DNA from: Thermodesulfobacterium commune DSM 2178
GTDB taxonomy: Bacteria > Desulfobacterota > Thermodesulfobacteria > Thermodesulfobacteriales > Thermodesulfobacteriaceae
Length of the DNA stretch: 32,000 nt
NCBI RefSeq assembly: GCF_000734015.1
Contig: NZ_CP008796.1
Location: 300,001-332,000 of the forward strand
Direction: 5' to 3'
Made by a program: the position numbers and the translations under genes. This document shows, piece by piece, positions 2,310 through 22,105 of the stretch. The notes under the pieces are model-generated. The model was not told the origin of the DNA. It did not search any database and saw only the letters and a list, made by a program, of their open reading frames with translations. Position 1 is the stretch's first letter, and each line of letters begins with the position of its first letter.

Positions 2310-3758
2310 TTATTCTTTAATTGGAATATAAAATATTTTGAGAACAGCTGAACCGTCCTTTTGACCTATTCCAAAAAGTCCTTCTAAGATTTCTACATAA
2401 CCTGTCTTCTCACCATCTACTATCCTTAAGATAGGGCCTATTTCCTGTACTTTTCTGTTTTTGTATCTTTCATATCTATAAAGCCCCCATAGCAGCTTAA
2501 ACATAACATATTCTTCTTTTTTGTAGTATTCCATCAGTTTTAAAAGTGGACCATAGTTTCTTTCTAACCCTTCGTCAAAAATAGGTAAAATTGCTGGAAA
2601 ATACCAGATTTTGACCTCTGGTGAACCCTGAGAAATGGTGTGAAAAAGAGGCCAAATTTTAACCTCTCTGGCAACCGTTTGGTTACCTTCCCATGTTTTT
2701 TGAGCTTTAGAGAGAATTAAGAAACGATGTATTTCTTCTCGATAGGTTTTCCCTTTATAAGAGATATAAGTTTTTTGATAGAAATAGAGAGGCCATAAAA
2801 CAAAAGAATCAAAGGTGTCTTCTTTTTTGACATAACCGTACAAAGGCCAAAAACGTTTACCCTCTATTTCTTTACCTTGAATTTTTCTGAAAAATGGCCA
2901 TGGTGCATCTAACTGATAGTATGAGTTGTCTGGGGTGGTGATTTTTTGGAAAAAAGGCCAAAGTATTATCTTTTTTTCAAAATCTTCGTTTTTTTCGCGA
3001 ATGTAAAAAGGAAAGATTATCAGTTTTTCTGAAGAATCTCCTTCTGAAGAATGAATAATTTCTTTTATGTAAAAAGGCCATAGGATAAATTTACGTTCCT
3101 GTTCCTCTTCTCTGAAGTTTCCATAAAAAGGCCAGATTTTAAATCCTTGGTAAAGAGATCGGTTTTGTTCTTGGTTAGCAGATATAGTTCTTACAAAGGG
3201 CCATAGGATGTTGTAGGCTGTATATTCTTCATATTTAGTTTTACTATAAAGAGGCCATAGAAAAAAAGTTATTTCATCAGCACCAAACCGATTTTTGATC
3301 TTTCCATAAAAAGGAAAAAAACCTCCATAGGTTTCGTTTGAAGAGGTTTTACCTGTAAAAAAAGGGAAAAAAGTAAATTGTGTTTCTTCAGGCTCTTCAG
3401 GAGAGTATTTATACCAAGTTTTGTTGATTATAGGAACTATTTTTAAGGTAGAACTTTGGGAATCAGACTGATAAATCCCTAAAGGAGATATAAAAAAGAT
3501 TTTTTTTGCTTCAGGAGTGACAACTTTAGAAGTAATAGGCCTTATAGAAGTAGCATTTTCTTTAGAAAAAGATGTTTTTTGATATAAGGGACCTAAGGCT
3601 TCAACCCTGGTGGAATTTAATTCATAATTTTGAGAAAAGAAAAAAATCGGCCAAAGATTAAACCGTTTTTCCTGTAAGTCTTCATAGGCATAGAGTGGAA
3701 AACATACAAAAATTAAGATAAATATTAAAAGGGTTGATATCTTTAATATTTTATACAT
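2310..3758 (-). CDS. Secreted/envelope repeat protein of unknown function (W-P-[FL]-[FY] repeats)
   Basis: The 482-aa ORF starts with a hydrophobic signal-like N-terminus (MYKILKISTLLIFILIFVCFPLYA/YE). This is followed by about 18-20 short aromatic/Pro repeats spaced roughly 18-20 aa apart. About 10 of them carry the full W-P-[FL]-[FY] motif, for example LWPIFFF, FLWPLYSK, ILWPFVR, KIWPFYGN, ILWPFYIK, ILWPFFQK, APWPFFRK, RFWPLYGY, VLWPLYFY and KIWPLFH. I recognise no named family. Confidence 0.75.
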   Translation of the reverse strand: MYKILKISTLLIFILIFVCFPLYAYEDLQEKRFNLWPIFFFSQNYELNSTRVEALGPLYQKTSFSKENATSIRPITSKVVTPEAKKIFFISPLGIYQSDSQSSTLKIVPIINKTWYKYSPEEPEETQFTFFPFFTGKTSSNETYGGFFPFYGKIKNRFGADEITFFLWPLYSKTKYEEYTAYNILWPFVRTISANQEQNRSLYQGFKIWPFYGNFREEEQERKFILWPFYIKEIIHSSEGDSSEKLIIFPFYIREKNEDFEKKIILWPFFQKITTPDNSYYQLDAPWPFFRKIQGKEIEGKRFWPLYGYVKKEDTFDSFVLWPLYFYQKTYISYKGKTYREEIHRFLILSKAQKTWEGNQTVAREVKIWPLFHTISQGSPEVKIWYFPAILPIFDEGLERNYGPLLKLMEYYKKEEYVMFKLLWGLYRYERYKNRKVQEIGPILRIVDGEKTGYVEILEGLFGIGQKDGSAVLKIFYIPIKE

Positions 3759-3856
3759 GATTTTAAAATTATAAAAAATTTTCGAGAAATGTCAATAATT
3801 TTTAGATAAAGCTATTTAATTTTGGTAAAATGCAATTTTTTGTTTTTTTTTTGTAT

Positions 3857-3885
3857 TTGACAAAATTTTTAACGTTAATTATTAA
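3857..3885 (+). promoter_or_regulatory. Candidate sigma-70-type promoter for the hemerythrin/sensor/dynamin cassette
   Basis: TTGACA (3857-3862), a 17-nt spacer and TATTAA (3880-3885) lie in the AT-rich divergent intergenic region, about 30 nt upstream of the hemerythrin start. Confidence 0.4.
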
Positions 3886-3917
3886 ATAATCTTTAGACAT
3901 CAATTGGAGGCAAAACT

Positions 3918-4316
3918 GTGCCGTTTTTAGAATGGAACGACAATTTTCTCACAGGTATTAAAGAGATTGATCAACAACATAAAAAGATGTTTAACATGGT
4001 TAATGCTTTATATGAGGCGGTAAGACTTAAGGTAGACAAAAAATTTCTGATAAACTCGATAAATACGCTTAATAACTATTTTGAAACCCATTTTAAATTT
4101 GAAGAAGAACTTTTAGAAAGGTATGGTTATCCTGAAATAGAGAAGCATAAAGAGGAACACGAAGGTTTTAAAAGATCTTTTAAAGAGTTAATCGACCAGG
4201 AAGAAGTTAATTTTTCTGAGGTTTTAAAACATTTGAAAAATTGGTGGGTTAGCCATCTTTTGGTTCATGATAAAAAATATGGAAATTTTTTAGCTGGAAA
4301 GATAAATAGTCAATAA
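3918..4316 (+). CDS. Bacteriohemerythrin (single-domain, O2/iron-binding four-helix bundle)
   Basis: The 132-aa ORF uses a GTG start 7 nt after GGAGG (3906-3910). The diiron ligand pattern is present: IDQQH, THFKFEE, HKEEH, WWVSHLLVHD. Confidence 0.85.
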   Translation: MPFLEWNDNFLTGIKEIDQQHKKMFNMVNALYEAVRLKVDKKFLINSINTLNNYFETHFKFEEELLERYGYPEIEKHKEEHEGFKRSFKELIDQEEVNFSEVLKHLKNWWVSHLLVHDKKYGNFLAGKINSQ

Positions 4317-4330
4317 AGGGGAGGTTTAAC

Positions 4331-5986
4331 ATGTCTTCTCAAGGTTGGTTCAGCAAATTAAATAAAAAGTTAGAGTTACATCAAAAGATTATACCCATTA
4401 TTGTAGTTTGTTTCTCTGTGTTGATAATTTTAACCATCATCGTTACTTCTTATGCTAACTATTTTTTTGGTTTAAAACACGCTAAACAGTCTTTAAAAGA
4501 AAAATATGAAATAGTATCTAATGCAATCATTAAACATGGACCACTTCTTGACAAAATGGTAGGAGATAAAAGACAAAACTATAAAATTATTAGAGAAGAA
4601 TTTTTAAGACAACAACCTAATATTAGAATTATAAGAAACGAAAAAATAGACGAGTTATATGGTAAGGAATCTCCTCAATATTATGCGAAAGATGAGTTAG
4701 AAAGAAAGGTCTTAAAAGAAGGAAATGAGGTAATAGTAAGAGAAGGTTTTGAGTTGAGAGGAGTTTTTCCGATTAAGCCTAACATAGAGTGTTTAAGATG
4801 TCATTATAATGTAGGAGAAAAAGAGGTAATAGGAGCTATAAGCATTGTTATTCCTGTAGAGTATATATTTTCTGAGACTAAACTGGTAACACTGGTTTAC
4901 ATATTTTTAGGTTTAGGAGGTATTTTAACTGCAGCATTAGCTGTTTATTTTACCTACATGAAAATAGCTCATCAACCTTTGGAATCTGTAGTAAAAGTTT
5001 TGGATAAAATAGCAGAGGGAGACCTTACGGTTGAAGTTCCAGCTGTTTTTAAAGAAAGAGAGGATATGATAGGAAGATTGTCTAAAGCAGTAGACAAAGT
5101 GTTAGAGTATATGAAAAACTTTACTTCCAAAATCCTTGACTATTCAGTAAAACTGGTAGACCAGGTGGATAATGTTTTTAGATTGGTAGACAGTGTTAAT
5201 GAGAAAATTAAGTTCCAGAATTTGCAGGTAGCACAGACTTCTATAATATCTGAGGATTTTGCTTTGACTGTGGGTTCTATTTCAAGGAACACCAGTGCTA
5301 TAAATAACATTGCTAAAGAAATGTTAGCCTATATAAAAAAGTTAAAAGAGGCAGAGGTTCAGGAACAATCAGAGATTTTGGTAAAGATATTTGGCTTGCT
5401 TGAAGGTTTGAATACTAAGGTATTAGAAATAGCAGAGGATTTAGACAAAGGTCTTAAAACTTCTGAAAGTATTAATGAGGCTTTTGAGGAGATTACCCAA
5501 GTTTCAAACGAGATCAGCCAACTCATGGATAAGATGAGCGAGAATGCTTATGAAACCTTGCTTATCTCTTCTTATATGAAAACCATAGCTTCCACAGTAA
5601 AAACCAAGAAGATGGAAGAGATGTTGTTTGAACTTTTTGAAAAGGATATAGACCGCTATATGTTACGTTTGCAGGCTCATATAAAAGGTATAGATAGACT
5701 TGACCCAGAGAGATGGGGAGATTATCAGGCCTTTCCTCTCGGAAAGTGGTATTATTCTGAAGAAGGTCAAAGTTTAAAAAAGATGATTCAAGATTTTGAT
5801 TTTGATGAATTTGAAAGTCTTTTGAAAAACCTTCATAATGTAGGTAAAGACCTTATTGTTGCTCACAATCAGGAAGATTCTATAAAGGTAGAAAAATTAC
5901 AGGTGCAGCTTAGAGGTATAGCAAGGAGGCTAAAGCTTCTTTTAGATGAGTTGAGAGAGCATTATTCTAAAATAAAAACTTTATAG
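4331..5986 (+). CDS. Transmembrane sensor: periplasmic CxxCH (heme c, DUF3365/Tll0287-like) domain, HAMP, degenerate MCP-like coiled coil and a CZB-like C-terminal domain
   Basis: The 551-aa ORF has two hydrophobic helices (about aa 19-43 and 184-208) flanking a ~140-aa domain. That domain contains C154-L-R-C-H158 (nt 4790-4804) followed by GAISIVIPV. A HAMP-like segment (AHQPLESVVKVLDKIAEGDLTVEVP) follows TM2. A long heptad-rich region lacks the conserved MCP tip. The C-terminus has H450...F-P-L-G-K-W...H502, resembling the chemoreceptor zinc-binding domain. Confidence 0.7.
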   Translation: MSSQGWFSKLNKKLELHQKIIPIIVVCFSVLIILTIIVTSYANYFFGLKHAKQSLKEKYEIVSNAIIKHGPLLDKMVGDKRQNYKIIREEFLRQQPNIRIIRNEKIDELYGKESPQYYAKDELERKVLKEGNEVIVREGFELRGVFPIKPNIECLRCHYNVGEKEVIGAISIVIPVEYIFSETKLVTLVYIFLGLGGILTAALAVYFTYMKIAHQPLESVVKVLDKIAEGDLTVEVPAVFKEREDMIGRLSKAVDKVLEYMKNFTSKILDYSVKLVDQVDNVFRLVDSVNEKIKFQNLQVAQTSIISEDFALTVGSISRNTSAINNIAKEMLAYIKKLKEAEVQEQSEILVKIFGLLEGLNTKVLEIAEDLDKGLKTSESINEAFEEITQVSNEISQLMDKMSENAYETLLISSYMKTIASTVKTKKMEEMLFELFEKDIDRYMLRLQAHIKGIDRLDPERWGDYQAFPLGKWYYSEEGQSLKKMIQDFDFDEFESLLKNLHNVGKDLIVAHNQEDSIKVEKLQVQLRGIARRLKLLLDELREHYSKIKTL

Positions 5987-6005
5987 AATAAAGAGGTAAT
6001 TAAAG

Positions 6006-8009
6006 ATGTCTACTCGTTTAGGTTTTACAGATTATAAATTTTATAAACAACAGGTTATAGAAGCTTTTGAAGTTTACAAGTCTTTAAGGGGAGAGGTTAA
6101 CGATGGAGTAGATCTTGAAAGTCTTTCTAAAAAGGTGCAAAACTTAAAGAACAGTCAATTTTTGGTGGCTGTAGCCGGTGAGGTAAAGGCAGGAAAGTCA
6201 AGTTTTATAAATAGTTTAATAAAAGAAGAGATACTTCCTACCGATGTTTTACAGGCTACCAGTGCACTTATCGAAATTTTTTATGCTAAAAAACCTTTTT
6301 TAAGAGTTACTTACGCCTCAGGTAGGGTAGAACTTTTTGAAGAAGAATCAAAAGAAATTTTTAGAGAGAGACTTAAGTCGATTGCCTCTATTCCTGAAGA
6401 ATACAGGGATATTCCGGTAACCTTGATAGATCTTTATATTTTAGAACACGATAAGGTTCCTCTGATAGACGATGATTTTATAAAGTACTTAGAAGAAAAG
6501 TCAGGAATGGAAAGACTTAAAGAGGTCAGGTATAAACTAGAACAATACGCTATGGATCGTAGTAAAGATAAAATCCCGATAAGGATAGAGCTTGGATATC
6601 CCTTTGATTGGGTTTTTGACGAGTTACGTTTTGTTGACATGCCAGGGGTTAACGCGGTAGGAGGAGTATATGACATTTCTTTTTCCTTTTTAGATAAAGC
6701 TAATGCTGTCCTTTTTATCCACCCTATTAAACCTGTAGAATCTGAGTCTTTTAAAAGGTTTGTTTCTTCGGTTATTACCAAAAAGAGTAAAGATGTATTG
6801 TTTTTAGTTTTAACCCATGCTGCGGTTTTTTATGAAGAAAAAGAGAGATTGTTAGATGAGGCTAAGCGTATTTATGGTTCTATCATACCTCCTGATAGGA
6901 TTTTTGCAGTAGATAGTATTCTAAAACTTATTTATGAAGAGCTAAATAAAGGGAAATCTTTAGCTGAAATAAAAAAAGATAAGAGTAAAAGAAAATGGGT
7001 AGTTTATTTTCAGGATTTGGCAGATGAAGAAGGTTTAGATGAAAAAGAAGCTTTTTTAGAGTTTTCTGGTTTTAAACAACTTCTTCCTAACCTTGAAAGA
7101 TTTTTGGTTGAAGCACCTTTTTCTATTTTAACAGAGGTTTTAGAGACTATTAAAGAGGGGTATAAAGAACAGATAAATCATTATCAAGAAACGATAACTT
7201 TACTTCAAAGTCAGAAAAAAGATCGAGAAGAGTTTTTAAGGGAGATAGAAAGACGACAGGAGGGTTTGAAGAAGTTAGAAGCTTACTGTTATTTAGTTTT
7301 GGAAGAAGCTATGACCATTTTTAGGGGGGTTCATTCTCCTATAGAGACTACTTTAAATGAGTTTAAGTTTAATTACTATGAACTTTTTTTAAAAAGTTCC
7401 GATTTAGAAGAATTGAGGAAGTATTATCGAGATGCTGAAAACGATTTAGACCAGATAGTGAGAGAAAACCTGCAAAAAATTACTGAATTTTTTAAAGAAA
7501 AGCTAAAACAAATAGGAGAACAGTTTAAAGAGGAATATAACATAAATTTACCCAAAATAGATTTTAAGGCCATAGAAGAGAGCTGTAAAAAGAGGGTGGT
7601 AAAAAGGGAAGAAATCGTAGAAGAAAGGATAGAAGAACTGTTTGAAAATTGGAATTTTCTTAAACCTTGGAAATGGTTTAAATCTGGGCGTATAAAAAGG
7701 ATGGTTGTAGGGACTAAAGAGGTATTAGATGAAAATATGTTTTTTAAGACTTTGAAAAACAGTCTGATAGAAAATTTTGTGGAAATCATCGAGAAATTGA
7801 GAGAAGAGTTTTACAATGCTTTTGATTTTTACAAAAAAAGGATTACGTTAATTTTAGAAGAAAAAAGAAGGGGTTTGGAAAAATTAAGACAAGAGTTAAA
7901 ATCAAACGAACTTATAGATTATGAAATTCTTATGTTAGAAAAGAATATTAGCTTGATCGAAGGTGAGCTTAAAAAAATCGATAATTTACAGAGTGCTCTT
8001 ATATGTTAA
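6006..8009 (+). CDS. Bacterial dynamin-like GTPase (BDLP family)
   Basis: The 667-aa ORF has G1/P-loop GEVKAGKS (aa 57-64, nt 6174-6197) in the context VAVAGEVKAGKSSFINSL. A conserved Thr region (PTDVLQATS) and G3 DMPG (aa 211-214) follow. The remaining ~400 aa are a K/E-rich helical stalk with no hydrophobic segment. Confidence 0.8.
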   Translation: MSTRLGFTDYKFYKQQVIEAFEVYKSLRGEVNDGVDLESLSKKVQNLKNSQFLVAVAGEVKAGKSSFINSLIKEEILPTDVLQATSALIEIFYAKKPFLRVTYASGRVELFEEESKEIFRERLKSIASIPEEYRDIPVTLIDLYILEHDKVPLIDDDFIKYLEEKSGMERLKEVRYKLEQYAMDRSKDKIPIRIELGYPFDWVFDELRFVDMPGVNAVGGVYDISFSFLDKANAVLFIHPIKPVESESFKRFVSSVITKKSKDVLFLVLTHAAVFYEEKERLLDEAKRIYGSIIPPDRIFAVDSILKLIYEELNKGKSLAEIKKDKSKRKWVVYFQDLADEEGLDEKEAFLEFSGFKQLLPNLERFLVEAPFSILTEVLETIKEGYKEQINHYQETITLLQSQKKDREEFLREIERRQEGLKKLEAYCYLVLEEAMTIFRGVHSPIETTLNEFKFNYYELFLKSSDLEELRKYYRDAENDLDQIVRENLQKITEFFKEKLKQIGEQFKEEYNINLPKIDFKAIEESCKKRVVKREEIVEERIEELFENWNFLKPWKWFKSGRIKRMVVGTKEVLDENMFFKTLKNSLIENFVEIIEKLREEFYNAFDFYKKRITLILEEKRRGLEKLRQELKSNELIDYEILMLEKNISLIEGELKKIDNLQSALIC

Positions 8010-8665
8010 AGAAAGAGACTATAAAAAACATAGAAAGTCAACTTGATAAAGACATAGATAAAGAAGTTGAGTTGATTAAAAGTGAACTTTTTTATTTTTT
8101 AGATAAAGATTTAGATATGTTTTTTTTAAAAGAGTTTGTCAAACATTATCCAAGGAAACTTCTCCGAGAAAGGTCTGAAGTTTTACTTGATACGGTACTT
8201 AACTATCTTATGAAAGAGATATTAGAACAAATTAGAACAAAAAGTTCAGACGTTCAGTATGCCTTTTCTAAAGAAAACCTAAGAGAAAAAATAAAGGAGT
8301 GGGCTTTAGCTAAAGAGAACAGGTATAATCCTTCTCTACTTAAATTGAAAGAGGAAGAGACCATAGTAGAAAAAACTATTACTGTAGCACCAGGTATAGT
8401 TGTTAGTGCTGGAGGGCTAATCGCTATAGCCTCAGCCCCTGAAACTTTAGTTTTAAAAGCTATTCCTGCAGTCTCTACTTTAGCAGGTCCGATTTATATC
8501 TTTAAAAAAATAAAAGAAAAAAACAAAAGATTAAAAAAAATCTGGAAAAAAGAAATAAACAGTTATTTAGAAAGGGCTAAAAAAGAGTTGAAAATTTGGT
8601 TGATAAAAGTGATCGAAAAATTTGAAAAAGAACTAACCGATTTTTGTAGAAAATTGGGGTTATAA
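8003..8665 (+). CDS. Membrane-hairpin protein translationally coupled to the dynamin-like GTPase
   Basis: The 220-aa ORF has an ATG that overlaps the dynamin stop by 7 nt (ATGTTAA). Helical K/E-rich N- and C-terminal parts flank one ~40-aa hydrophobic Gly/Pro/Ala-rich stretch (VAPGIVVSAGGLIAIASAPETLVLKAIPAVSTLAGPIYIF, nt ~8378-8503). Confidence 0.6.
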   Translation: MLKKETIKNIESQLDKDIDKEVELIKSELFYFLDKDLDMFFLKEFVKHYPRKLLRERSEVLLDTVLNYLMKEILEQIRTKSSDVQYAFSKENLREKIKEWALAKENRYNPSLLKLKEEETIVEKTITVAPGIVVSAGGLIAIASAPETLVLKAIPAVSTLAGPIYIFKKIKEKNKRLKKIWKKEINSYLERAKKELKIWLIKVIEKFEKELTDFCRKLGL

Positions 8666-8704
8666 CTTGACTTTATATTCAAAGAAAATATTATAATAAA
8701 AGTT

Positions 8705-9769
8705 ATGAATAAAATTTTTGATTTAAAAAGTCTGAAAAGTTTATTAACTTTTAAGAAATCTCAAAAAAACGTTTATATAGGAATAGATATAGGGACATAT
8801 TCTATCAAAATAGCCGAGGTTGTTTTAAATAAAAATAATAACATAATTCTTACTAATTTTATCCAAGGAAAAACCTACCCGAATGTTATCGTAAACGGAA
8901 TAATCAACGACTTTCAATATCTAAGCACTAATTTAAAAAATATTTTTGAAGTGTTTCAACCGATTTCTAATCAAGTTAATCTTTCGCTTTCGTATGATGT
9001 ACTTATATATGATTCTTTTCAATCTCAATATATACCTTCTGAAGAAGAAATAAGAAATAAACTTAATGAAGACATTCCCTATAATTTAGATGATGTTTAT
9101 TACAGTTATTTTATCTTCCCTATGCAAAATAGTTATAAAATTCTTTATTTGGTTATAAAGAAGGATATAGCTCAACAGTTTGAAAATCTTTTGAAAGGCC
9201 TTAATTTCAGCGTAAAAAACATGGATGCAGATTTTATAAATATTCACAACCTTGTAGAGTTTTTAGAAGGGGAAGAAAAGGCCAAGTTAATCGTCGATTG
9301 GGGGGAAAGTAAGGTTAGACTTCTTTTTTCTACCAAAGATATTCCTGTATACAATCGAGAACTTTTTAATCTTGGTTTAAAAAACCTTAAAAAAGAAATA
9401 AGAAAACTGGTTCCGGATAAAGATATGGTAGAGATGGTCATGGTTAATCCTTCTAATTTTGAGAAATTTCAAGAGGTAAAGGAAATTTACAAAAACTATA
9501 TCAACGAAATCATAAAAGAAATTCAGTACACCATCGAGTTTGTACAAGGTAAGTTTAATTTAATCTTAGAAGTAGTATATCTGGTAGGAGGAGGAGCAAG
9601 AATTTTAGATATAGAAAAGATTTTTACTTCAAAACTTAAACTTGAAACAAAAAAAATCAACCTCCAAGATAGGATTGAGATAGACTCTAATGTTGATCCA
9701 ACTTATCTTAAGATCATAAACACTCAAGGGGCGAATGCTGTAGCTGCAGCTTTGAGGGAATTTATATGA
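8705..9769 (+). CDS. pilM: Type IV pilus assembly protein PilM (actin-like ATPase fold)
   Basis: The 354-aa ORF has the N-terminal actin/FtsA-like phosphate-1 motif VYIGIDIGTYSIKIAEV and a late LVGGGARI motif. It is first in a pilMNOPQ-ordered operon. Confidence 0.8.
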   Translation: MNKIFDLKSLKSLLTFKKSQKNVYIGIDIGTYSIKIAEVVLNKNNNIILTNFIQGKTYPNVIVNGIINDFQYLSTNLKNIFEVFQPISNQVNLSLSYDVLIYDSFQSQYIPSEEEIRNKLNEDIPYNLDDVYYSYFIFPMQNSYKILYLVIKKDIAQQFENLLKGLNFSVKNMDADFINIHNLVEFLEGEEKAKLIVDWGESKVRLLFSTKDIPVYNRELFNLGLKNLKKEIRKLVPDKDMVEMVMVNPSNFEKFQEVKEIYKNYINEIIKEIQYTIEFVQGKFNLILEVVYLVGGGARILDIEKIFTSKLKLETKKINLQDRIEIDSNVDPTYLKIINTQGANAVAAALREFI

Positions 9770-10308
9770 TCATTAAGTTTAACCTCTTACCTAAACCTAA
9801 AGAGACAGTAAAGGAGGAAATTCATAAAGAACCTTTTAGGTTTTATAAACTTATCATACCTTTAGTTATTTTTGTATTATCTGTGATGTTAAGTGGTGTT
9901 ATTTCTCTGGAAAAACAGAAGAAAGACCTGATTAAAGAAAAAACAACTAAAGAAACTAAGCTTAAGGAATATAAGATGGTAGCTCAAAAGGTGGAACAAC
10001 TTGAAAAGGAAAACGAAGAGGTTAAAAGAAGGATAGAAACCATTTTATCTCTTAAAAAGGATAGAGAAAAGGTTTTAAAAAGATTAGATGTTGTTCTTAG
10101 TAATCTTGGTAAAAATCAGGTTTATTTTAGTTTGTTAAAGATAGGCTCTAATCAAACCAAGATAGAAGGTATAAGTACTGATATGAAAGAAGTAGGTGAA
10201 TATTTAAAAACCTTAGAGGAAAAAAAGGATATAGTAAGACAGGTAAACATTACCCAGGTTAAAAAGCAAGATAAGCTGGTAGAATTCCAGGCTGAGGTTG
10301 TTTTTTGA
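9766..10308 (+). CDS. pilN: Type IV pilus assembly protein PilN
   Basis: The 180-aa ORF overlaps pilM by ATGA. It has the short cytoplasmic N-terminus (IIKFNLLP) typical of PilN, a single TM helix and then a coiled coil. Operon position supports the call. Confidence 0.7.
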   Translation: MIIKFNLLPKPKETVKEEIHKEPFRFYKLIIPLVIFVLSVMLSGVISLEKQKKDLIKEKTTKETKLKEYKMVAQKVEQLEKENEEVKRRIETILSLKKDREKVLKRLDVVLSNLGKNQVYFSLLKIGSNQTKIEGISTDMKEVGEYLKTLEEKKDIVRQVNITQVKKQDKLVEFQAEVVF

Positions 10309-10907
10309 TGAAGGCTTTGATCGAAAGACTTAAAGCTTGGGATGAAGTTACCCCTAAAAGAACAAAAATACTTCTTTTGCTTGTTTTAGTGATAGGTCCC
10401 CTTGCGTTGTTTTATCAGTTTTATTATCAGCCCAGTAAAGAGACTATAAATGTTTTAAAAGAAGATGTTAAAAAGTTAGACTTGGAAATAGTTAAATACT
10501 CCCAGGTTGTTAACAAGCTTGAATTCCTTAATAAACAAATGGCAGCAAGAAAAGAATTTTTGGAAGTGGTAAAGACTATCTTTCCTGATGAAAAGGAGAT
10601 ACCTGTTATCCTGAAAAAGATAGCAGAGCTTGCTAAAAAAAACAATTTAGATTTAGCCTTGTTTAAACCAGAGAAGGAAGAGCTAAAAGATTACTATAAG
10701 ATCATTCCTATTACTGTTGAACTCGTAGGAGATTTTAGCAACATGATAAATTTTCTAAACGAGATTCAAAAGCTTCCTCGTTTAGTGGTAATAAATGAAC
10801 TTGAGTTTAAGGTTAAAGATAAGAGGCTTACCCTTGGATTAAATTTAAGTACTTTTCAATATACAGGTAAACCTTTAGAAACTAAAGAGAATAAGGAAAA
10901 GAAATGA
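10308..10907 (+). CDS. pilO: Type IV pilus assembly protein PilO
   Basis: The ~199-aa ORF has one N-terminal TM helix, a coiled coil and a ferredoxin-like C-terminal part. The ATG at 10308 overlaps the pilN TGA, and the ORF track uses an in-frame TTG at 10305. Operon position supports the call. Confidence 0.7.
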   Translation: MKALIERLKAWDEVTPKRTKILLLLVLVIGPLALFYQFYYQPSKETINVLKEDVKKLDLEIVKYSQVVNKLEFLNKQMAARKEFLEVVKTIFPDEKEIPVILKKIAELAKKNNLDLALFKPEKEELKDYYKIIPITVELVGDFSNMINFLNEIQKLPRLVVINELEFKVKDKRLTLGLNLSTFQYTGKPLETKENKEKK

Positions 10908-11362
10908 AAATTAAAGTTTGGTTGGTAAGTTTAGTGTTGATTTGTTTATTAATAGGGTGTGATAAAAAGAAAGAGGAACCTATTTCTCCCAAAATAGGTG
11001 TAAATGCAACTTTAATCGATAAGGAGCTTGAAACGTGGAAGGTTGAGCTTGCTAAAGAACCTTATATAATAAACTCTAAAGAGGTTAAAAATCCTTTTAT
11101 TGCCCCTGTAGTAGGTAAAACCATAAGTTATGAAAATGTCCTTTCTATACGTTTAGTAGGTATAGTTGATAAACAAGGAAAAAAGTGGGCTCTTATTCAG
11201 GACGAAAGCAAGATGGGTTATCTGGTTAAACCAGGAAGTAAGATAGGAAATTACAGGATCTTAAAGATAGAAAAGAACCAGGTTTTAGTAGAAGAAGAGA
11301 TAACCGACCTTTATGGCAATCGTAAGAAGGTGCAAAGGGTTTTAAGTTTGATCAAGGAGTGA
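10904..11362 (+). CDS. pilP: Type IV pilus assembly lipoprotein PilP
   Basis: The 152-aa ORF overlaps pilO by ATGA, has a lipobox (LLIGC) and sits between pilO and the secretin gene. Confidence 0.6.
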   Translation: MKIKVWLVSLVLICLLIGCDKKKEEPISPKIGVNATLIDKELETWKVELAKEPYIINSKEVKNPFIAPVVGKTISYENVLSIRLVGIVDKQGKKWALIQDESKMGYLVKPGSKIGNYRILKIEKNQVLVEEEITDLYGNRKKVQRVLSLIKE

Positions 11363-11365
11363 GGT

Positions 11366-13294
11366 ATGAAGATAAAAATATTTATTTTTAACATGCTTAT
11401 ATTTATTTTAGCTTTTATGTTTATTCTAAGTTTTGGAAAGGGTGAGGCAAAAGCTAAGACCAATCTAAAAGAGGTGTTTTACCTGAAACAACCGGTTGAT
11501 ACTTTGATTTTTGAATTTGATGGAAAACCTCAATATACCTTAAATGTTGATGAGACTAAATTGACTCTATTTTTACAAAACGTGATTCCTTTGAAATCAA
11601 ACTGGGTAAAAAATTTACCCAAGGATTTGATTAAGGAAGTCGATGTTTCTATAGAAAAGAATGGGATTAGATTAAGTTTAACCTTGACCAAAAAGTTTAA
11701 CGTTCAGGTAAAAGATTTAGAAAATAAAATTCTGGTGGAATTTTTATGGGAAAAACCTTTAAAACCGGTCAACGTGGTTATTAAAGATAAAAAAGTAGAA
11801 ACCTTAGAGGAAAAAACTTTAAAGGAATTAAGAGATATTTTAGAAAATAAGATAAGTACCCAACCGTACGAGATTCTTTTAAATGAAAGAAGGGTGAGTC
11901 TTCCGCTTTCTGACCTTAAATATAAAGGGATTCCTATAACGGTTGATTTTCAAGGGGCAGACCTACATGCCGTTTTAAGGCTTCTTTCAGAGGTAGGTGG
12001 TATTAATATTTTGGTGAGTGATAAAGTTAACGGTATAGTTACCCTTAAAGCCAAAGATGTTCCGTGGGATCTGTTATTAGATGCGATAATCTCTAACTTT
12101 GGTTTAGCGAAGTTGAAAACAGAAAATTTGATTGTGATTGCTACGTTAGATGAGGTCAAAAAATATGCAGAACAGTATAAAGATTACTTAAAGGCAGTAG
12201 CTCAGGGTAAAGAGGGTATTAAAGCAGAAATAGAAGCTCAGCGAGATATTTTTGATGCTTTGCAAAAGGTTCAAGAAGAAAAAAACCTGCTTATTACCAA
12301 AATTTTTACGCTTAAGTATTTAAGAGCAAGCAAGGTTATAGACCTTCTAAAGAGCCATCGTTTTCCGGATAAGCTTCAGGAGCTACTTAAGGATCCCAAC
12401 AAAATAACCTTTGAACCTCTAACCAACACCATTATAGTTAAGGCAACTCCCAAAATTTTAGATGAGATTGAGGCGATCATTAAAGCTATAGATAAACCAA
12501 GGCCTCAGATAATGATAGAGGCAAGAATAGTCGAAATGAGAGATGAGTATGCCCATAAATTGGGTATTAAGTGGGGGGGAGCTGCTTGGAAAAGAACAGA
12601 ACATAGTATTTGGAATATTGCTCCTGGTCATTCTATTACCACAAATGATACCATGACTACAAAAACACCAAGTATTAACATTCCTAACACAACCATCTTT
12701 GATTTAGGTGTTGCCAATAGCATAGCAAATTTAGGGGTTGCTTTAGGGTATTTTGGTGCTACCACGGCTGTGCTTGACGTAACTCTTTCTGCTCTTGAAG
12801 AATCAGGGGTTGCAAGGGTTCTTTCAAAACCTCAAATTTTAACCCTTGACAAAGAACAAGCTATAATACAGCAGGGTTACAGAATTCCTTACTTGAGTTA
12901 TGCAGCTAACATCAACCAGGCAACCGTAAATTTTATAGATGCTGGGTTAAAACTTTTGGTAACCCCTTCTGTTACCCCAGAGGGTAAAATTTTTGTAGAT
13001 GTGGTTATAGAAAAGTCAGAGCCTGATTGGGGGCGTACAGTTCAAGGTGAACCAACTATTAATACCAGTAACATTTCTACCTCGGCTTTACTTGATAATG
13101 GAGAAACTTTAGTAATAGGAGGGGTTAAAATAAATAACATTTCTGATAACATAGATAAAGTTCCTGGGCTTGGAAGTATTCCAGGAGCAGGGGAATTTTT
13201 TAAAAGAAAAGAAAAAACGTTGTCTACCAGCGAACTTATGATTTTTATAACTCCCAAAATAGCCTATATTCCTATAGAAGGGATAGACTATTAA
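11366..13294 (+). CDS. pilQ: Type IV pilus secretin PilQ
   Basis: The 642-aa ORF has a signal peptide and an AMIN-like N-terminal domain. It has a secretin N-domain (ITVDFQGADLHAVLRLLSEVGGINILV) and a conserved secretin C-domain (VLSKPQILTLDKEQA ... VPGLGSIPGAGEFFKRKE ... ELMIFITPKI). Confidence 0.9.
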   Translation: MKIKIFIFNMLIFILAFMFILSFGKGEAKAKTNLKEVFYLKQPVDTLIFEFDGKPQYTLNVDETKLTLFLQNVIPLKSNWVKNLPKDLIKEVDVSIEKNGIRLSLTLTKKFNVQVKDLENKILVEFLWEKPLKPVNVVIKDKKVETLEEKTLKELRDILENKISTQPYEILLNERRVSLPLSDLKYKGIPITVDFQGADLHAVLRLLSEVGGINILVSDKVNGIVTLKAKDVPWDLLLDAIISNFGLAKLKTENLIVIATLDEVKKYAEQYKDYLKAVAQGKEGIKAEIEAQRDIFDALQKVQEEKNLLITKIFTLKYLRASKVIDLLKSHRFPDKLQELLKDPNKITFEPLTNTIIVKATPKILDEIEAIIKAIDKPRPQIMIEARIVEMRDEYAHKLGIKWGGAAWKRTEHSIWNIAPGHSITTNDTMTTKTPSINIPNTTIFDLGVANSIANLGVALGYFGATTAVLDVTLSALEESGVARVLSKPQILTLDKEQAIIQQGYRIPYLSYAANINQATVNFIDAGLKLLVTPSVTPEGKIFVDVVIEKSEPDWGRTVQGEPTINTSNISTSALLDNGETLVIGGVKINNISDNIDKVPGLGSIPGAGEFFKRKEKTLSTSELMIFITPKIAYIPIEGIDY

Positions 13295-13304
13295 CCATTA
13301 AAAA

Positions 13305-14615
13305 ATGTCTGAAGTTTGGGTAGTAGGGGGAGGGCTTGCTGGTTCTGAGGCTGCCTGGCAGCTTGCGGTTAGAGGGGTTAAGGTTGTCCTGTTTGAGATG
13401 CGCCCTACTAAACTTACCCCAGCCCATAAAACAGATTTATTAGCTGAACTTGTATGTTCAAACTCCCTTCGTTCTAAAGAGCTTACCAAGGCTGTAGGAC
13501 TTTTAAAGGAAGAATTAAGGCTTTTAAAATCTTTGATACTTGAGTCAGCTTTAATTTCTGAAGTTCCTTCAGGCAAAGCTTTAGCGGTAGATAGAAAGCT
13601 TTTTTCTGAATATATAACCCAAAAACTTTCTTCTCATCCTAACATAAAAATTATCAGAGAAGAGTTAACGGAGATTCCCAAGGATAGAATAGTTATTTTA
13701 GCTACAGGACCTCTTACCAGTGAAGCTATGGCTAAAGCTTTGGCAACCCTGATAGAGGTACCTTATTTACATTTTTATGATGCCATATCTCCTGTGGTGT
13801 ATGCAGAAACCATAGATTGGGATAAGGTGTTTGTAGCAGACCGTTATGGAAAAGAGGAAGGATCGTATGTAAACTGTCCTCTTACCAAAGAGGAATACGA
13901 AAGATTTTGGGAGGCTTTGATAAAAGCAGAAAAGGTTCCTTTACATTCCTTTGAAGACCCAAAGTATTTTGAAGGATGTCTCCCTATAGAGGTAATGGCT
14001 GAAAGGGGAAAAGAAACCCTGCTTTATGGTCCGATGAAACCTGTAGGATTGGTAGACCCAAGAACAGGTAAACAACCTTATGCAGTAGTACAACTAAGGC
14101 CTGAAAATCGAGAAAAGACTTTATACAACATGGTAGGGTTTCAGACTAAGCTAAAATATGAGGAACAAAAAAGGGTTTTTCGGCTTATCCCAGGGCTTGA
14201 GCAGGCAGAGTTTGCAAGGTTAGGTTCTATCCATAGAAATACCTTCGTTAATGCCCCTTTGGTCTTACATCCTACCCTTCAGCTTAAAAAAAGTCCTAAT
14301 GTTTTTTTAGCAGGACAACTTACAGGTGTTGAAGGGTATGTAGAATCTACTGCCATGGGTTTTTTAGCAGGAATTAATGCAGAAAGGTTGATGAAGGGGA
14401 AGCCCTTATTAGTTCCTCCTAAGGAAACGGCTATCGGGGCTTTAGTACACTATTTGGTTGAAGCAAATCCAAAGTATTTTCAACCTATGAACATTAACTG
14501 GGGGCTTTTTCCTCAGTTGGATAAAAAAGTTCACAAAAATCAAAAATATCAGTTAATGGTAGAAAGGGCACTAAAGGCCCTTTCTGAATGGATTAGCAAA
14601 AATCAGGTATTATAA
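13305..14615 (+). CDS. trmFO: Methylenetetrahydrofolate--tRNA-(uracil54-C5)-methyltransferase TrmFO
   Basis: The 436-aa ORF has the N-terminal FAD motif VVGGGLAGSEAAWQLA, the CSNSLR motif, and the length and overall pattern of TrmFO/Gid. Confidence 0.9.
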   Translation: MSEVWVVGGGLAGSEAAWQLAVRGVKVVLFEMRPTKLTPAHKTDLLAELVCSNSLRSKELTKAVGLLKEELRLLKSLILESALISEVPSGKALAVDRKLFSEYITQKLSSHPNIKIIREELTEIPKDRIVILATGPLTSEAMAKALATLIEVPYLHFYDAISPVVYAETIDWDKVFVADRYGKEEGSYVNCPLTKEEYERFWEALIKAEKVPLHSFEDPKYFEGCLPIEVMAERGKETLLYGPMKPVGLVDPRTGKQPYAVVQLRPENREKTLYNMVGFQTKLKYEEQKRVFRLIPGLEQAEFARLGSIHRNTFVNAPLVLHPTLQLKKSPNVFLAGQLTGVEGYVESTAMGFLAGINAERLMKGKPLLVPPKETAIGALVHYLVEANPKYFQPMNINWGLFPQLDKKVHKNQKYQLMVERALKALSEWISKNQVL

Positions 14616-18089: not shown

Positions 18090-18129
18090 GAATATACAAA
18101 AGAAAAAAACAAAAAAGGAGGTGCCAGAT

Positions 18130-20988: not shown

Positions 20989-20993
20989 GCTAT

Positions 20994-22103: not shown

Positions 22104-22105
22104 GT

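What the first reader, a model, noticed from the sequence alone, without database searches (positions are those of the whole stretch)
3918..8665. Four-gene hemerythrin / heme-HAMP sensor / dynamin-like GTPase / membrane-hairpin cassette with no described function, directly upstream of pilMNOPQ
Four co-directional genes are separated by 14 nt, 19 nt and a 7-nt overlap, and the first three have their own strong SD. They encode (1) a stand-alone bacteriohemerythrin, (2) a two-TM sensor with a periplasmic CxxCH domain, HAMP and a non-canonical output, (3) a dynamin-like GTPase and (4) a small protein with a hydrophobic hairpin. Hemerythrin coupled to chemoreceptor-type signalling is known (DcrH of Desulfovibrio vulgaris fuses the two). 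Bacterial dynamin-like proteins are known membrane-remodelling or repair GTPases. I know of no characterised system that places a redox/O2 sensor pair in one operon with a dynamin. One hypothesis is a signal-gated membrane remodelling or repair module, for example responding to oxidative or envelope stress in an anaerobe. The cassette is only 39 nt from pilM, and the co-directional block continues through trmFO (10 genes, 3918-14615), so a link to pilus or envelope assembly is also possible.
Basis: partly seen in the sequence, partly recalled or inferred. Interest (0 to 1): 0.75.

Follow-up and report, generated by a model that had tools for sequence, protein, structure and literature searches.

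The report
Oxygen-sensor pair wired to bacterial dynamin
A heat-loving sulfate-reducing bacterium carries a conserved four-gene operon that joins an oxygen-binding protein and a chemoreceptor-derived sensor lacking its normal signalling tip to a dynamin-like membrane GTPase and its small membrane anchor; no such sensor-plus-dynamin combination turned up in the literature searched.

Summary
Four co-directional genes lie at 3918-8665 in a Thermodesulfobacterium genome. They encode a DcrH-like bacteriohemerythrin, a two-TM sensor, a BDLP/mitofusin-type dynamin-like GTPase and a 220-aa protein with a hydrophobic hairpin.

Three results sharpen the picture:
- **Synteny.** The cassette is kept intact in nine loci (window included) across five different genomic contexts in Thermodesulfobacteriaceae. 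Sensor identity falls to about 33% between them. Gene gaps run from -11 to +54 nt (+19 at most for sensor-DLP and DLP-partner).
- **The sensor is a derived chemoreceptor.** It keeps an invariant CxxCH periplasmic domain and the HAMP region. It has lost the ~118-residue block that carries the CheA/CheW-binding tip, and 3 of 4 zinc ligands of its CZB domain. A stand-alone paralogue keeps both.
- **DLP and partner are an older pair.** In other phyla the pair is always followed by a ~1,000-aa HerA/DUF87 ATPase, often with an LHH nuclease and SUKH immunity gene, and half of those loci have defence or mobile-element genes nearby.

pilMNOPQ adjacency is not conserved family-wide, although pilM alone stays attached within the genus.

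Best reading: a redox/O2 input pair controlling a dynamin membrane machine. The coupling itself is inferred, not shown. I rate it a new variant of a known kind.

The parts
3857..3885 (+). Putative promoter of the cassette: -35 TTGACA (3857-3862), 17-nt spacer, -10 TATTAA (3880-3885)
   Evidence: Read from the sequence. The TTGAC core aligns in the upstream regions of L001 and L009. Missed by the scan because of its rule for position 6 of the -10 hexamer. Function inferred, not shown.
3918..4316 (+). Stand-alone bacteriohemerythrin (132 aa, GTG start, SD GGAGG at 3906-3910)
   Evidence: NCBIfam bact_hemeryth 110.5 bits and Pfam PF01814 57 bits. All seven Fe ligands (H21, H58, E62, H77, H81, H113, D118) are invariant in six cassette orthologues. 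Best solved relative is the Hr domain of the Desulfovibrio chemoreceptor DcrH, E=4.9e-17.
4331..5986 (+). Tip-less MCP-derived transmembrane sensor (551 aa): TM1, periplasmic CxxCH domain, TM2, HAMP, shortened coiled-coil hairpin, degenerate CZB-like four-helix bundle
   Evidence: AF2 model pLDDT 79.7. Aligns to paralogue P0140 on both sides of a ~118-residue gap that holds the EAARAGE-GKGFAVVA tip in P0140 and P0150.
4466..4882 (+). Periplasmic alpha/beta sensor domain (aa ~46-184) with c-type haem motif CLRCH (aa 154-158, nt 4790-4804)
   Evidence: C154, C157 and H158 invariant in 8/8 sequences. Foldseek match to the periplasmic haem-c sensor domain of GSU0935 (3b42): prob 1.0, E=0.016, TM(target) 0.47. 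Pfam Tll0287-like only E=0.067. Haem attachment not tested.
4961..5125 (+). HAMP-like linker (aa ~211-265)
   Evidence: Pfam HAMP 17.6-18.6 bits, below the cutoff of 25. P216, D245 and G248 invariant. Position directly after TM2 in the AF2 model.
5066..5593 (+). Shortened antiparallel coiled-coil hairpin (helices aa 246-340 and 343-421, turn at ~341), the remnant of the MCP signalling domain without its tip
   Evidence: AF2 secondary structure. Alignment gap against P0140 and P0150. MCPsignal only E=0.046 here against 151.6 bits in P0140.
5606..5980 (+). CZB-derived four-helix bundle (aa 426-550) with 3 of 4 zinc ligands substituted
   Evidence: Pfam CZB 27.4 bits, below the cutoff of 29.4. 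In alignment A2 the ligand positions that are H, C and HxxxH in P0140 are I, F and LxxxH in the window, and none is kept in L003 or L004. Ligand positions are from published CZB motif knowledge.
6006..8009 (+). Bacterial dynamin-like GTPase (667 aa), BDLP/mitofusin type
   Evidence: Pfam Dynamin_N 65.4 bits. Profile against PDB: Nostoc BDLP 2j68, E=2.1e-20. AF2 pLDDT 81.2; Foldseek 2j69, E=5.8e-18, then IniA, SynDLP, Cj-DLP1/2 and mitofusins.
6177..6200 (+). P-loop GEVKAGKS (aa 58-65). G3 DMPG at aa 211-214. Non-canonical G4 LTHAA at aa 269-273.
   Evidence: Motif columns of alignment A1.
7632..7691 (+). Trp-rich basic tip (aa 543-562, EELFENWNFLKPWKWFKSGR) of a beta-hairpin in the stalk: candidate membrane-inserting paddle
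   Evidence: AF2 strands 532-543 and 562-574 with a low-confidence tip. W549 nearly invariant. Membrane binding is inferred by analogy with the BDLP paddle.
8003..8665 (+). 220-aa partner protein, translationally coupled (7-nt overlap, no SD), helical with a hydrophobic hairpin at aa 125-167 (nt 8375-8503)
   Evidence: No Pfam, NCBIfam or PADLOC family. Homologous to the gene that follows the DLP in Advenella and Algibacter (27-28% identity, E=3e-24 and 2e-17). The family has 89 representatives, nearly all 210-240 aa.
8705..9769 (+). pilM (354 aa): context gene, possibly associated within the genus. Promoter-like TTGACT (8667-8672) and TATTAT/TATAAT (8689-8697) lie in the 39-nt gap.
   Evidence: Pfam PilM_2 64 bits. 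Promoter-like site. pilM follows the cassette in L001, L094, L009 and L093 but not in L003, L010 or L004.

Best explanation
The four genes form one conserved operon-level module, restricted (as far as sampled) to Thermodesulfobacteriaceae. It has two halves.

**Core.** A BDLP/mitofusin-type dynamin-like GTPase and a small hairpin-anchored partner form the core. The pair is ancient and also occurs in other phyla.

**Input.** In this lineage the core has gained an input pair. One member is a cytoplasmic DcrH-like hemerythrin with an intact diiron site, which would bind O2. The other is a chemoreceptor-derived transmembrane transducer. It keeps its periplasmic c-haem sensor domain and HAMP, but has lost the hairpin tip that couples chemoreceptors to CheA/CheW, and it has lost the zinc site of its C-terminal CZB domain.

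**Proposed mechanism.** The transducer can no longer signal to a chemotaxis kinase. Its output is therefore most likely a direct protein contact at the inner membrane with the co-translated dynamin and partner. Periplasmic redox state would be read by the haem and cytoplasmic O2 by the hemerythrin. The hemerythrin may dock on the degenerate CZB or hairpin, mimicking the fused arrangement in DcrH. The combined signal would gate recruitment, assembly or GTPase activity of the dynamin, leading to membrane sealing, tethering or remodelling when this strict anaerobe meets oxidants.

**Shown.** Gene order and coupling, domain content, tip and zinc-ligand loss, intact Fe and haem motifs, BDLP fold, conserved synteny, and monophyly of the cassette-linked dynamin clade.

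**Inferred.** Haem and O2 binding, every protein-protein contact, the direction of signalling, and the physiological output.
For: - **Synteny.** Hr-sensor-DLP-partner is kept in the window, L001, L094, L009, L093, L003, L010 and L004, across five different flanking contexts. Sensor identity falls to 33-37% and Hr identity to 27-43%. Starting from the sensor gives the same cassette in 2 of 2 look-ups.
- **Tight coupling.** Sensor-to-DLP gaps are -1 to +19 nt and DLP-to-partner gaps are -1 to -11 nt in seven loci.
- **Tip loss.** All six cassette sensors lack the tip block that P0140 and P0150 retain. P0140 has the same CxxCH domain, MCPsignal at 151.6 bits and CZB at 43.6 bits. It is a stand-alone gene with no Hr or DLP nearby.
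- **Intact sensing sites.** The Hr Fe ligands are invariant, and its closest solved relative is the chemoreceptor-borne DcrH Hr. The periplasmic domain matches the GSU0935 haem-c sensor.
- **BDLP fold.** The DLP fold and GTPase motifs are supported.
- **Single origin.** The cassette-linked DLPs form one clade of 27 in an NJ tree of 118 sequences.
- **Housekeeping flanks.** Neighbours are housekeeping genes, not defence islands.
Against: - No result shows any physical or regulatory contact between sensor and DLP.
- Co-transcription is not proof of a shared pathway.
- In all other phyla the DLP and partner work without Hr or sensor, so the core does not need this input.
- The sensor could signal by joining arrays of tip-bearing MCPs, since the genome has flagellin and canonical MCP paralogues.
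- HAMP, CZB and Tll0287-like matches are all below curated thresholds.
- The DLP family has a non-canonical G4 motif (LTHxx, no Asp), so even GTP specificity is untested.
- Caldimicrobium cassettes carry an extra gene of 275-284 aa, so the unit is not strictly four genes.
Confidence: 0.5

Rival explanations
1. Two independent two-gene units share a promoter. Hr and the tip-less sensor would form an O2/redox-sensing accessory receptor that modulates chemotaxis or twitching by mixing into arrays of tip-bearing MCPs. The DLP and partner would be a constitutive membrane-maintenance pair. Adjacency would be inherited, not functional.
For: DLP and partner exist without Hr or sensor in all eight non-Thermodesulfobacteriaceae loci. 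The sensor plainly descends from an MCP and keeps the membrane-proximal coiled coil. The window encodes flagellin and type IV pilus genes. Hr-MCP coupling is established for DcrH (plus published knowledge).
Against: The four genes moved together into five different contexts and stayed adjacent while diverging to about 30-35% identity. In two loci the sensor stop overlaps the DLP start. No tip-less sensor was found away from a DLP. The canonical paralogue, by contrast, stands alone. Loss of both the tip and the zinc site argues for a changed output rather than ordinary array signalling.
Confidence: 0.2
2. The cassette is a domesticated or re-tooled conflict system. The DLP-partner pair is the membrane-surveillance core of an undescribed defence or toxin-handling system, DLP-partner-HerA/DUF87 ATPase-LHH nuclease-SUKH immunity. 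In Thermodesulfobacteriaceae the ATPase and toxin arm was swapped for Hr and sensor, but the function is still protection against phage or other envelope attack, as for DynA or Eleos.
For: All eight loci outside the family have the DUF87 ATPase straight after the DLP, with the partner gene between them in seven; L014 is the exception. Four also have LHH and SUKH. Neighbours in four of the eight include type I R-M, Fic, GmrSD, HicA, integrase and other methylase or endonuclease genes. Bacterial dynamins are established in phage defence: Eleos/LeoABC and DynA (PMC12998192 listed).
Against: The Thermodesulfobacteriaceae cassettes sit among housekeeping genes: cobB, pil, ribosomal proteins, pheST, rho and lpxD. 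They look vertically retained as one clade. An O2/redox sensor pair has no obvious role in phage sensing. There is no PADLOC hit beyond the P-loop, with LeoBC at 23.7 bits. No homologue was found in the phage or plasmid collections. The defence role of the architecture with the ATPase is itself untested.
Confidence: 0.15
3. The cassette serves type IV pilus or envelope assembly. It would be part of a longer pil operon and would control pilus biogenesis in response to O2 or redox.
For: Only 39 nt and no terminator separate the cassette from pilM. pilM follows the cassette in the window, L001, L094, L009 and L093. In L009 and L093 a pilM-like gene remains attached although pilNOPQ is absent from the downstream flank, which holds convergent lpxD and proS.
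Against: There is no pil gene next to the cassette in L003, L010 or L004. A promoter-like element lies in the 39-nt gap. DLP-partner pairs in other phyla have no pil neighbours.
Confidence: 0.1

Closest known systems
Nostoc punctiforme BDLP (PDB 2J68/2J69/2W6D) and the BDLP/mitofusin branch of the dynamin superfamily (IniA, SynDLP, Campylobacter DLP1/2)
   Same: GTPase domain followed by a helical stalk that folds back, with a membrane-facing tip. Best sequence-profile hit (E=2.1e-20) and best fold hit (E=5.8e-18). G1, switch I and G3 conserved.
   Different: About 14% identity. The tip is a Trp-rich beta-hairpin loop rather than the helical paddle. G4 is LTHxx instead of NxxD. It is always paired with a separate ~220-aa hairpin protein, and here it sits behind a sensor pair.
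LeoABC / Eleos two-dynamin anti-phage system (Michie 2014; Millman 2022, bioRxiv 10.1101/2022.05.11.491447) and B. subtilis DynA
   Same: Bacterial dynamins encoded with a membrane-anchoring component. Relatives of the window's DLP lie in defence islands. The LeoA structure is recovered by fold search (4aur, E=4.5e-8).
   Different: Eleos has two dynamin-like GTPases. This module has one GTPase plus a partner that is not a GTPase. The PADLOC LeoBC model matches only the P-loop (23.7 bits). No HerA ATPase, Hr or MCP-like gene is described for Eleos.
DcrH of Desulfovibrio vulgaris (MCP with C-terminal hemerythrin domain)
   Same: The window's Hr is most similar to the DcrH Hr domain among solved structures (E=4.9e-17). 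In both cases a hemerythrin is associated with an MCP-type transducer in an anaerobic sulfate reducer.
   Different: Here Hr is a separate protein. The transducer has no signalling tip. Its C-terminal domain is a degenerate CZB, not Hr. The downstream genes are a dynamin pair, not che genes.
Haem-c PAS-like periplasmic sensor MCPs GSU0935/GSU0582 of Geobacter sulfurreducens (PDB 3B42) and the Tll0287-like/DUF3365 family
   Same: A periplasmic alpha/beta domain with a single CxxCH between two TM helices of an MCP-type protein. Foldseek prob 1.0, TM(target) 0.47. Weak Pfam Tll0287-like hits centred on the haem motif.
   Different: Sequence matches are below family thresholds. There is no hit to Tll0287 itself by sequence profile. 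The cytoplasmic part lacks the MCP tip.
CZB-containing chemoreceptors (TlpD type) and the stand-alone paralogue P0140 in Thermodesulfobacterium
   Same: Same overall order: CxxCH domain, HAMP, coiled coil, CZB. 32-36% identity to P0140 on both sides of the deletion.
   Different: A ~118-residue tip block is deleted. Zinc ligands are reduced to 1 of 4 in the window and 0 of 4 in L003 and L004. MCPsignal is not detected.
DLP-partner-HerA/DUF87 ATPase(-LHH-SUKH) loci in Bacteroidota, Pseudomonadota and metagenomes (undescribed as far as I could find)
   Same: Orthologous DLP (38-44% identity) and partner (27-31% identity) with the same overlap-coupled gene order.
   Different: They have a ~1,000-aa HerA/FtsK-type ATPase and often a nuclease toxin with an immunity gene downstream, and no Hr or sensor upstream. 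Half of the eight sit in defence or mobile-element contexts.

Membership tests
Dynamin superfamily, BDLP/mitofusin branch (667-aa protein) | Dynamin-type large GTPase domain recognised by family profiles | tested here: met
   Pfam Dynamin_N 65.4 bits against a cutoff of 27. Profile against PDB: Nostoc BDLP, E=2.1e-20.
Dynamin superfamily, BDLP/mitofusin branch (667-aa protein) | Conserved G1 P-loop, switch I Thr and G3 DxxG | tested here: met
   GEVKAGKS, T/S in LQATS and DxPG are invariant or nearly so in 18 sequences.
Dynamin superfamily, BDLP/mitofusin branch (667-aa protein) | G4 (N/T)KxD or NxxD guanine-specificity motif | tested here: not met
   The position after the beta strand reads LTHxx family-wide, with no Asp. 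Nucleotide specificity is therefore open. An invariant VDS follows the next strand.
Dynamin superfamily, BDLP/mitofusin branch (667-aa protein) | Helical neck/trunk (stalk) folding back on the GTPase domain, with a membrane-binding tip | tested here: met
   AF2 model pLDDT 81.2 and pTM 0.60. Foldseek full-length matches to 2j69, IniA and SynDLP. Tip membrane binding itself was not tested.
Dynamin superfamily, BDLP/mitofusin branch (667-aa protein) | GTP hydrolysis stimulated by assembly or lipid; membrane remodelling | not testable with these tools
   Needs biochemistry.
Bacteriohemerythrin (132-aa protein) | Family profile above the curated cutoff | tested here: met
   NF033749 110.5 bits (cutoff 84). 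TIGR02481 107.3 bits (cutoff 51.75).
Bacteriohemerythrin (132-aa protein) | Seven diiron ligands: H, HxxxE, HxxxH, HxxxxD | tested here: met
   H21, H58, E62, H77, H81, H113 and D118 are invariant in six cassette orthologues.
Methyl-accepting chemotaxis protein (551-aa protein) | MCP signalling domain with the conserved hairpin tip that binds CheA/CheW | tested here: not met
   Pfam MCPsignal E=0.046, against 151.6 bits in P0140. A ~118-column gap replaces the tip in all six cassette sensors. AF2 shows a short hairpin turning at aa ~341.
Methyl-accepting chemotaxis protein (551-aa protein) | Two-TM topology with periplasmic sensor domain and HAMP | tested here: met
   TM segments at 20-38 and 185-203. 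AF2 topology. The HAMP Pfam score is sub-threshold (17.6 against 25), but its position and invariant P216, D245 and G248 fit.
CZB, chemoreceptor zinc-binding domain (551-aa protein, C-terminus) | Pfam gathering score | tested here: not met
   27.4-28.5 bits against a cutoff of 29.4. Some orthologues are pre-annotated with PF13682.
CZB, chemoreceptor zinc-binding domain (551-aa protein, C-terminus) | 3His/1Cys zinc ligands (H...CxLGxW...HxxxH; motif from published knowledge) | tested here: not met
   The window has I, F, L and H at the four positions. L003 and L004 have none. Paralogue P0140 has all four.
Tll0287-like / DUF3365 haem-c PAS-like domain (551-aa protein, periplasmic part) | Pfam PF11845 above the gathering score | tested here: not met
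   E=0.067 at 14.1 bits in the window, and 17.9 bits in L003, against a cutoff of 24.1. No Tll0287 hit by profile against PDB sequences.
Tll0287-like / DUF3365 haem-c PAS-like domain (551-aa protein, periplasmic part) | Single CxxCH in a periplasmic alpha/beta (PAS-like) fold | tested here: met
   CxxCH invariant. The AF2 alpha/beta domain matches the GSU0935 haem-c sensor 3b42, prob 1.0. Covalent haem not testable here.
Eleos (LeoA/LeoBC) defence system | Two dynamin-like GTPase genes matching the LeoA and LeoBC models | tested here: not met
   Only one GTPase is present. LeoBC scores 23.7 bits over the P-loop only, and there is no LeoA hit. The partner has no hit.
Any PADLOC-DB v2.0.0 defence system | Profile match of cassette proteins | tested here: not met
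   No significant full-length match for any of the four proteins, nor for the Algibacter DLP and partner.

The most novel reading that the evidence does not exclude
A chemoreceptor that has shed its kinase-control tip would act as a dedicated transmembrane receptor for a dynamin. Periplasmic haem and a cytoplasmic hemerythrin would directly gate assembly or GTPase activity of a bacterial dynamin-like protein and its hairpin anchor. This would be the first receptor-controlled prokaryotic dynamin. It would also be a second, non-kinase output for the MCP scaffold. The same DLP-partner core would serve in other phyla as the membrane arm of an undescribed HerA-ATPase/nuclease conflict system.
Probability: 0.35. 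Interest if true: 0.85.

Novelty: new variant of a known kind. Interest (0 to 1): 0.62.

Why it matters
What triggers bacterial dynamins is largely unknown. Most are studied as stand-alone membrane repair, fusion or phage-defence factors with no defined input. This cassette is a natural case where a dynamin pair is genetically locked to a recognisable O2/redox sensing pair, so the question of what switches a bacterial dynamin on becomes directly testable.

It also shows an MCP scaffold that has lost both its kinase-coupling tip and its zinc site yet has been conserved for a long time. That implies a non-chemotaxis output for chemoreceptor-like proteins.

Finally, it reveals that the DLP and 220-aa hairpin protein form a cross-phylum pair. 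Elsewhere this pair is coupled to a large HerA/DUF87 ATPase and nuclease toxin-immunity genes. This is a candidate new conflict system, absent from PADLOC 2.0.

Tried and rejected
- **Ordinary MCP serving a che cluster.** Rejected. The tip is deleted and MCPsignal is not detected. No che genes were found among the window ORFs scanned.
- **Membership in Eleos or any other PADLOC system.** Rejected.
- **Conserved upstream divergent gene as a fifth component.** Rejected. The 482-aa protein is conserved only in the closest genomes, and the upstream genes of L003 and L009 are unrelated.
- **Sensor related to the N-terminal part of the DUF87 ATPase, as a domain swap.** No similarity.
- **A DUF87 ATPase elsewhere in the window.** None.
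- **Tll0287 relationship by sequence profile against PDB.** Only the haem motif matched cytochrome c3.
- **Operator palindrome.** TTAACGTTAA in the promoter spacer (3870-3879) is not conserved in L001 or L009.
- **Plasmid or phage carriage of the DLP.** No matches.
- **Literature.** Searches combining dynamin with DUF87, HerA, hemerythrin, SUKH, chemoreceptor or Thermodesulfobacterium gave nothing relevant.
- **Genome scan.** The genome-contig scan was mostly swamped by P-loop matches of unrelated dynamins. Only L009-L014 were informative.

Full report
**1. Observation**

The window is from a Thermodesulfobacterium. The DLP is 97% identical to a Thermodesulfobacterium sp. protein, and the partner is 94-99% identical to T. 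hveragerdense and T. commune proteins.

- 3918-4316, 132 aa, GTG start
- 4331-5986, 551 aa
- 6006-8009, 667 aa
- 8003-8665, 220 aa

The gaps are 14 nt, 19 nt and a 7-nt overlap. pilM starts 39 nt further on, and the co-directional block continues through pilNOPQ and trmFO. GGAGG, GGGGAGG and AAGAGG precede the first three genes. The fourth overlaps the DLP stop (ATGTTAA) and has no Shine-Dalgarno sequence.

A TTGACA-17-TATTAA element lies at 3857-3885. Its -35 core aligns in two orthologous upstream regions.

**2. The four proteins**

*Gene 1* is a bona fide bacteriohemerythrin: NCBIfam 110.5 bits against a cutoff of 84. All seven diiron ligands are invariant in six cassette orthologues. Its closest solved relative is the hemerythrin domain of the Desulfovibrio chemoreceptor DcrH, E=4.9e-17.

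*Gene 3* is a dynamin-family GTPase.
- Pfam Dynamin_N scores 65.4 bits.
- A family profile hits Nostoc BDLP at E=2.1e-20.
- The AF2 model (pLDDT 81.2, pTM 0.60) matches BDLP at E=5.8e-18. IniA, SynDLP, Campylobacter DLP1/2 and the mitofusins follow.
- G1, switch I and G3 are conserved. The G4 position reads LTHxx throughout the family, with no Asp.
- A beta-hairpin in the stalk carries a disordered Trp-rich basic tip (NWNFLKPWKWFKSGR), which is a plausible membrane-inserting element.
- It has no TM segment.

*Gene 4* has no match in Pfam, NCBIfam or PADLOC. It is helical-looking, with a 43-residue hydrophobic stretch (aa 125-167) broken by a conserved PET turn, consistent with a hairpin anchor.

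*Gene 2* is the most informative.
- It has two TM helices at aa 20-38 and 185-203.
- Between them lies a periplasmic alpha/beta domain with an invariant CxxCH.
- After TM2 come a HAMP-like linker, a helical hairpin (helices 246-340 and 343-421) and a C-terminal four-helix bundle.
- All Pfam matches are sub-threshold: HAMP 17.6 bits (cutoff 25), CZB 27.4 bits (cutoff 29.4), Tll0287-like E=0.067 and MCPsignal E=0.046.
- The fold search returns full-length MCP models. For the periplasmic part it returns the haem-c sensor domain of Geobacter MCP GSU0935 (3b42, prob 1.0).

A Thermodesulfobacterium paralogue, P0140 (657 aa), has the same CxxCH domain and HAMP. It also has a canonical MCP signalling domain (151.6 bits) and CZB (43.6 bits). 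The window protein aligns to P0140 on both sides of a block of about 118 residues. That block contains the EAARAGE-GKGFAVVA hairpin tip, and it is missing from all six cassette-linked sensors.

At the four CZB zinc-ligand positions (motif from published work) P0140 has H, C, H and H. The window sensor has I, F, L and H. The L003 and L004 sensors have none of the four.

The sensor is therefore a chemoreceptor derivative. It kept its periplasmic input and lost both the kinase-coupling tip and the zinc site. P0140 itself is a stand-alone gene with no Hr or DLP nearby.

**3. Synteny**

Starting from DLP homologues, the order Hr-sensor-DLP-partner is found in the following loci:

| Locus | Source | Flanking context |
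|---|---|---|
| L001 | T. sp. TA1 | same flanks as the window, with pilMNOPQ |
| L009 | Ca. T. syntrophicum | followed by pilM only, then convergent lpxD and proS |
| L003, L010 | Caldimicrobium type | extra 275-284-aa gene between Hr and sensor; flanked by ribosomal/pheST or rho and by ftsJ/sbcD or acrB; no pil genes |
| L004 | metagenome | flanked by nrfD/cytochrome c7 and phosphate-binding proteins; no pil genes |

Starting instead from two sensor homologues gave the full cassette both times (L093 and L094).

Sensor-to-DLP gaps are -1 to +19 nt and DLP-to-partner gaps are -1 to -11 nt in seven loci. In an NJ tree of 118 DLPs, the 27 cassette-linked sequences form one clade on a long stem. 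The four-gene unit therefore arose once, has been kept while the sensor and Hr diverged to about 30% identity, and has been relocated several times. This is good evidence of functional linkage.

The pilMNOPQ adjacency is genus-level only. One oddity remains: a pilM-like gene stays attached in L009 and L093, where pilNOPQ is not downstream.

**4. The wider family**

Outside Thermodesulfobacteriaceae, DLP homologues at 38-44% identity occur widely. Hosts include Advenella, Algibacter, Legionella, Halopseudomonas and several metagenome or MAG lineages. In seven of the eight loci examined the DLP is followed by a homologue of the 220-aa partner at 27-31% identity. Pairwise E-values for the Algibacter and Advenella partners are 2e-17 and 3e-24. 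The exception is L014.

In all eight loci a DUF87/HerA-FtsK-type ATPase follows. It is about 1,000-1,060 aa in most. In four loci an LHH nuclease and a SUKH immunity protein come next. In four of the eight loci the neighbours include type I R-M, Fic, GmrSD, HicA, integrase and other methylase or endonuclease genes.

None of these loci has Hr or a sensor, and none of the Thermodesulfobacteriaceae loci has the ATPase.

The partner family is small: 89 representatives at E<=1e-3 among 1.84 billion, nearly all 210-240 aa. PADLOC 2.0 does not recognise the DLP or the partner. No homologue is present in the phage or plasmid collections. Literature searches found no description of either architecture. 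The known dynamin defence system, Eleos, consists of two dynamin-like GTPases, which this is not.

**5. Mechanism**

*Shown:* a co-translated DLP and hairpin-anchor core; an upstream Hr with an intact diiron site; and an MCP-derived transducer that cannot use the canonical CheA/CheW route.

*Inferred, about 0.5 confidence:* the transducer's output is a direct contact with the DLP-partner complex at the inner membrane. The periplasmic haem and the cytoplasmic Hr would supply redox and O2 information. Hr may dock on the zinc-less CZB-like bundle, reproducing in trans the DcrH arrangement. The outcome would be gated dynamin assembly for membrane sealing or remodelling in a strict anaerobe exposed to oxidants.

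*Rivals:*
- Two independent units under one promoter (0.2).
- A re-tooled conflict or defence module (0.15).
- A pilus or envelope assembly role (0.1).

**6. Verdict**

The CZB is degenerate and the haem-domain family assignment is weak. The pil link is genus-level only. The dynamin-partner core belongs to a cross-phylum family otherwise tied to a HerA-type ATPase and toxin-immunity genes.

Each component belongs to a known kind. The combination appears undescribed, as does the tip-less, zinc-less chemoreceptor derivative locked to a dynamin. I rate it a new variant of a known kind, interest about 0.6.

Noticed in passing
L006:8001-14643; L007:8001-14666; L008:481-7386; L011:3970-9609; L012:8001-13607; L089:7001-13790; L090:7001-11508: Conserved DLP, ~217-aa partner and ~1,000-aa DUF87/HerA-type ATPase, with LHH nuclease and SUKH immunity genes in four loci. 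Found in Bacteroidota, Pseudomonadota and metagenomes. In four loci they sit beside R-M, Fic, GmrSD, HicA or integrase genes. Not recognised by PADLOC 2.0. A candidate undescribed conflict or defence system.
   Followed up: partly
L009:10737-11792 and L093:10439-11494: A pilM-like gene (PilM_2/FtsA fold) directly follows the cassette, although pilNOPQ is absent from the downstream flank (convergent lpxD and proS instead). PilM may therefore be linked to the cassette within the genus rather than only to the pilus operon.
   Followed up: partly
L003:7529-8356 and L010:3701-4555: Caldimicrobium-type cassettes carry an extra 275-284-aa gene between the hemerythrin and the sensor. It has no family match. 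The L010 copy has a lipoprotein-like signal (…LFLFSSC). It may be an added periplasmic input component.
   Followed up: partly
window 6810-6824 (DLP aa 269-273): The whole DLP family has LTHxx where dynamins carry the G4 N/TKxD or NxxD motif, and an invariant VDS after the next strand. Guanine specificity is not guaranteed.
   Followed up: partly
window 2310-3758 (- strand): A divergently transcribed 482-aa ORF with no Pfam, NCBIfam or PADLOC match. It is conserved only in the closest genomes (L001 at 75% identity; a 494-aa gene in L094).
   Followed up: partly
window 8666-8704: The 39-nt gap before pilM holds TTGACT with TATTAT/TATAAT but no recognisable Shine-Dalgarno sequence for pilM. Either the pilM start or its mode of translation initiation may be unusual.
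   Followed up: no
L091:1028-3001 compared with L003:1-7000: The canonical MCP paralogue P0140 lies near the rpmI-rplT-pheST-HU-merR-dfx cluster. The Caldimicrobium cassette (L003) sits next to the same cluster. This hints at where the tip-less sensor may have originated.
   Followed up: no
P0260 (737 aa): A 737-aa protein carries a partner-like domain at residues 522-724, fused to an unrelated N-terminal region of about 520 aa. It is a different architecture for the partner family.
   Followed up: no
window 18121-19653; 20386-26634: A flagellin gene, so the organism is probably motile and has chemotaxis machinery. Also a TetR, membrane-fusion protein, AcrB-type RND pump and outer-membrane factor efflux operon.
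   Followed up: no
window 3870-3879: A perfect 10-bp palindrome, TTAACGTTAA, lies in the spacer of the putative cassette promoter. It is not conserved in L001 or L009.
   Followed up: yes
window 3001-5000 and 7001-10000: G+C content of the cassette and the start of the pil operon (0.275-0.30) is lower than in the rest of the window (0.34-0.39).
   Followed up: no
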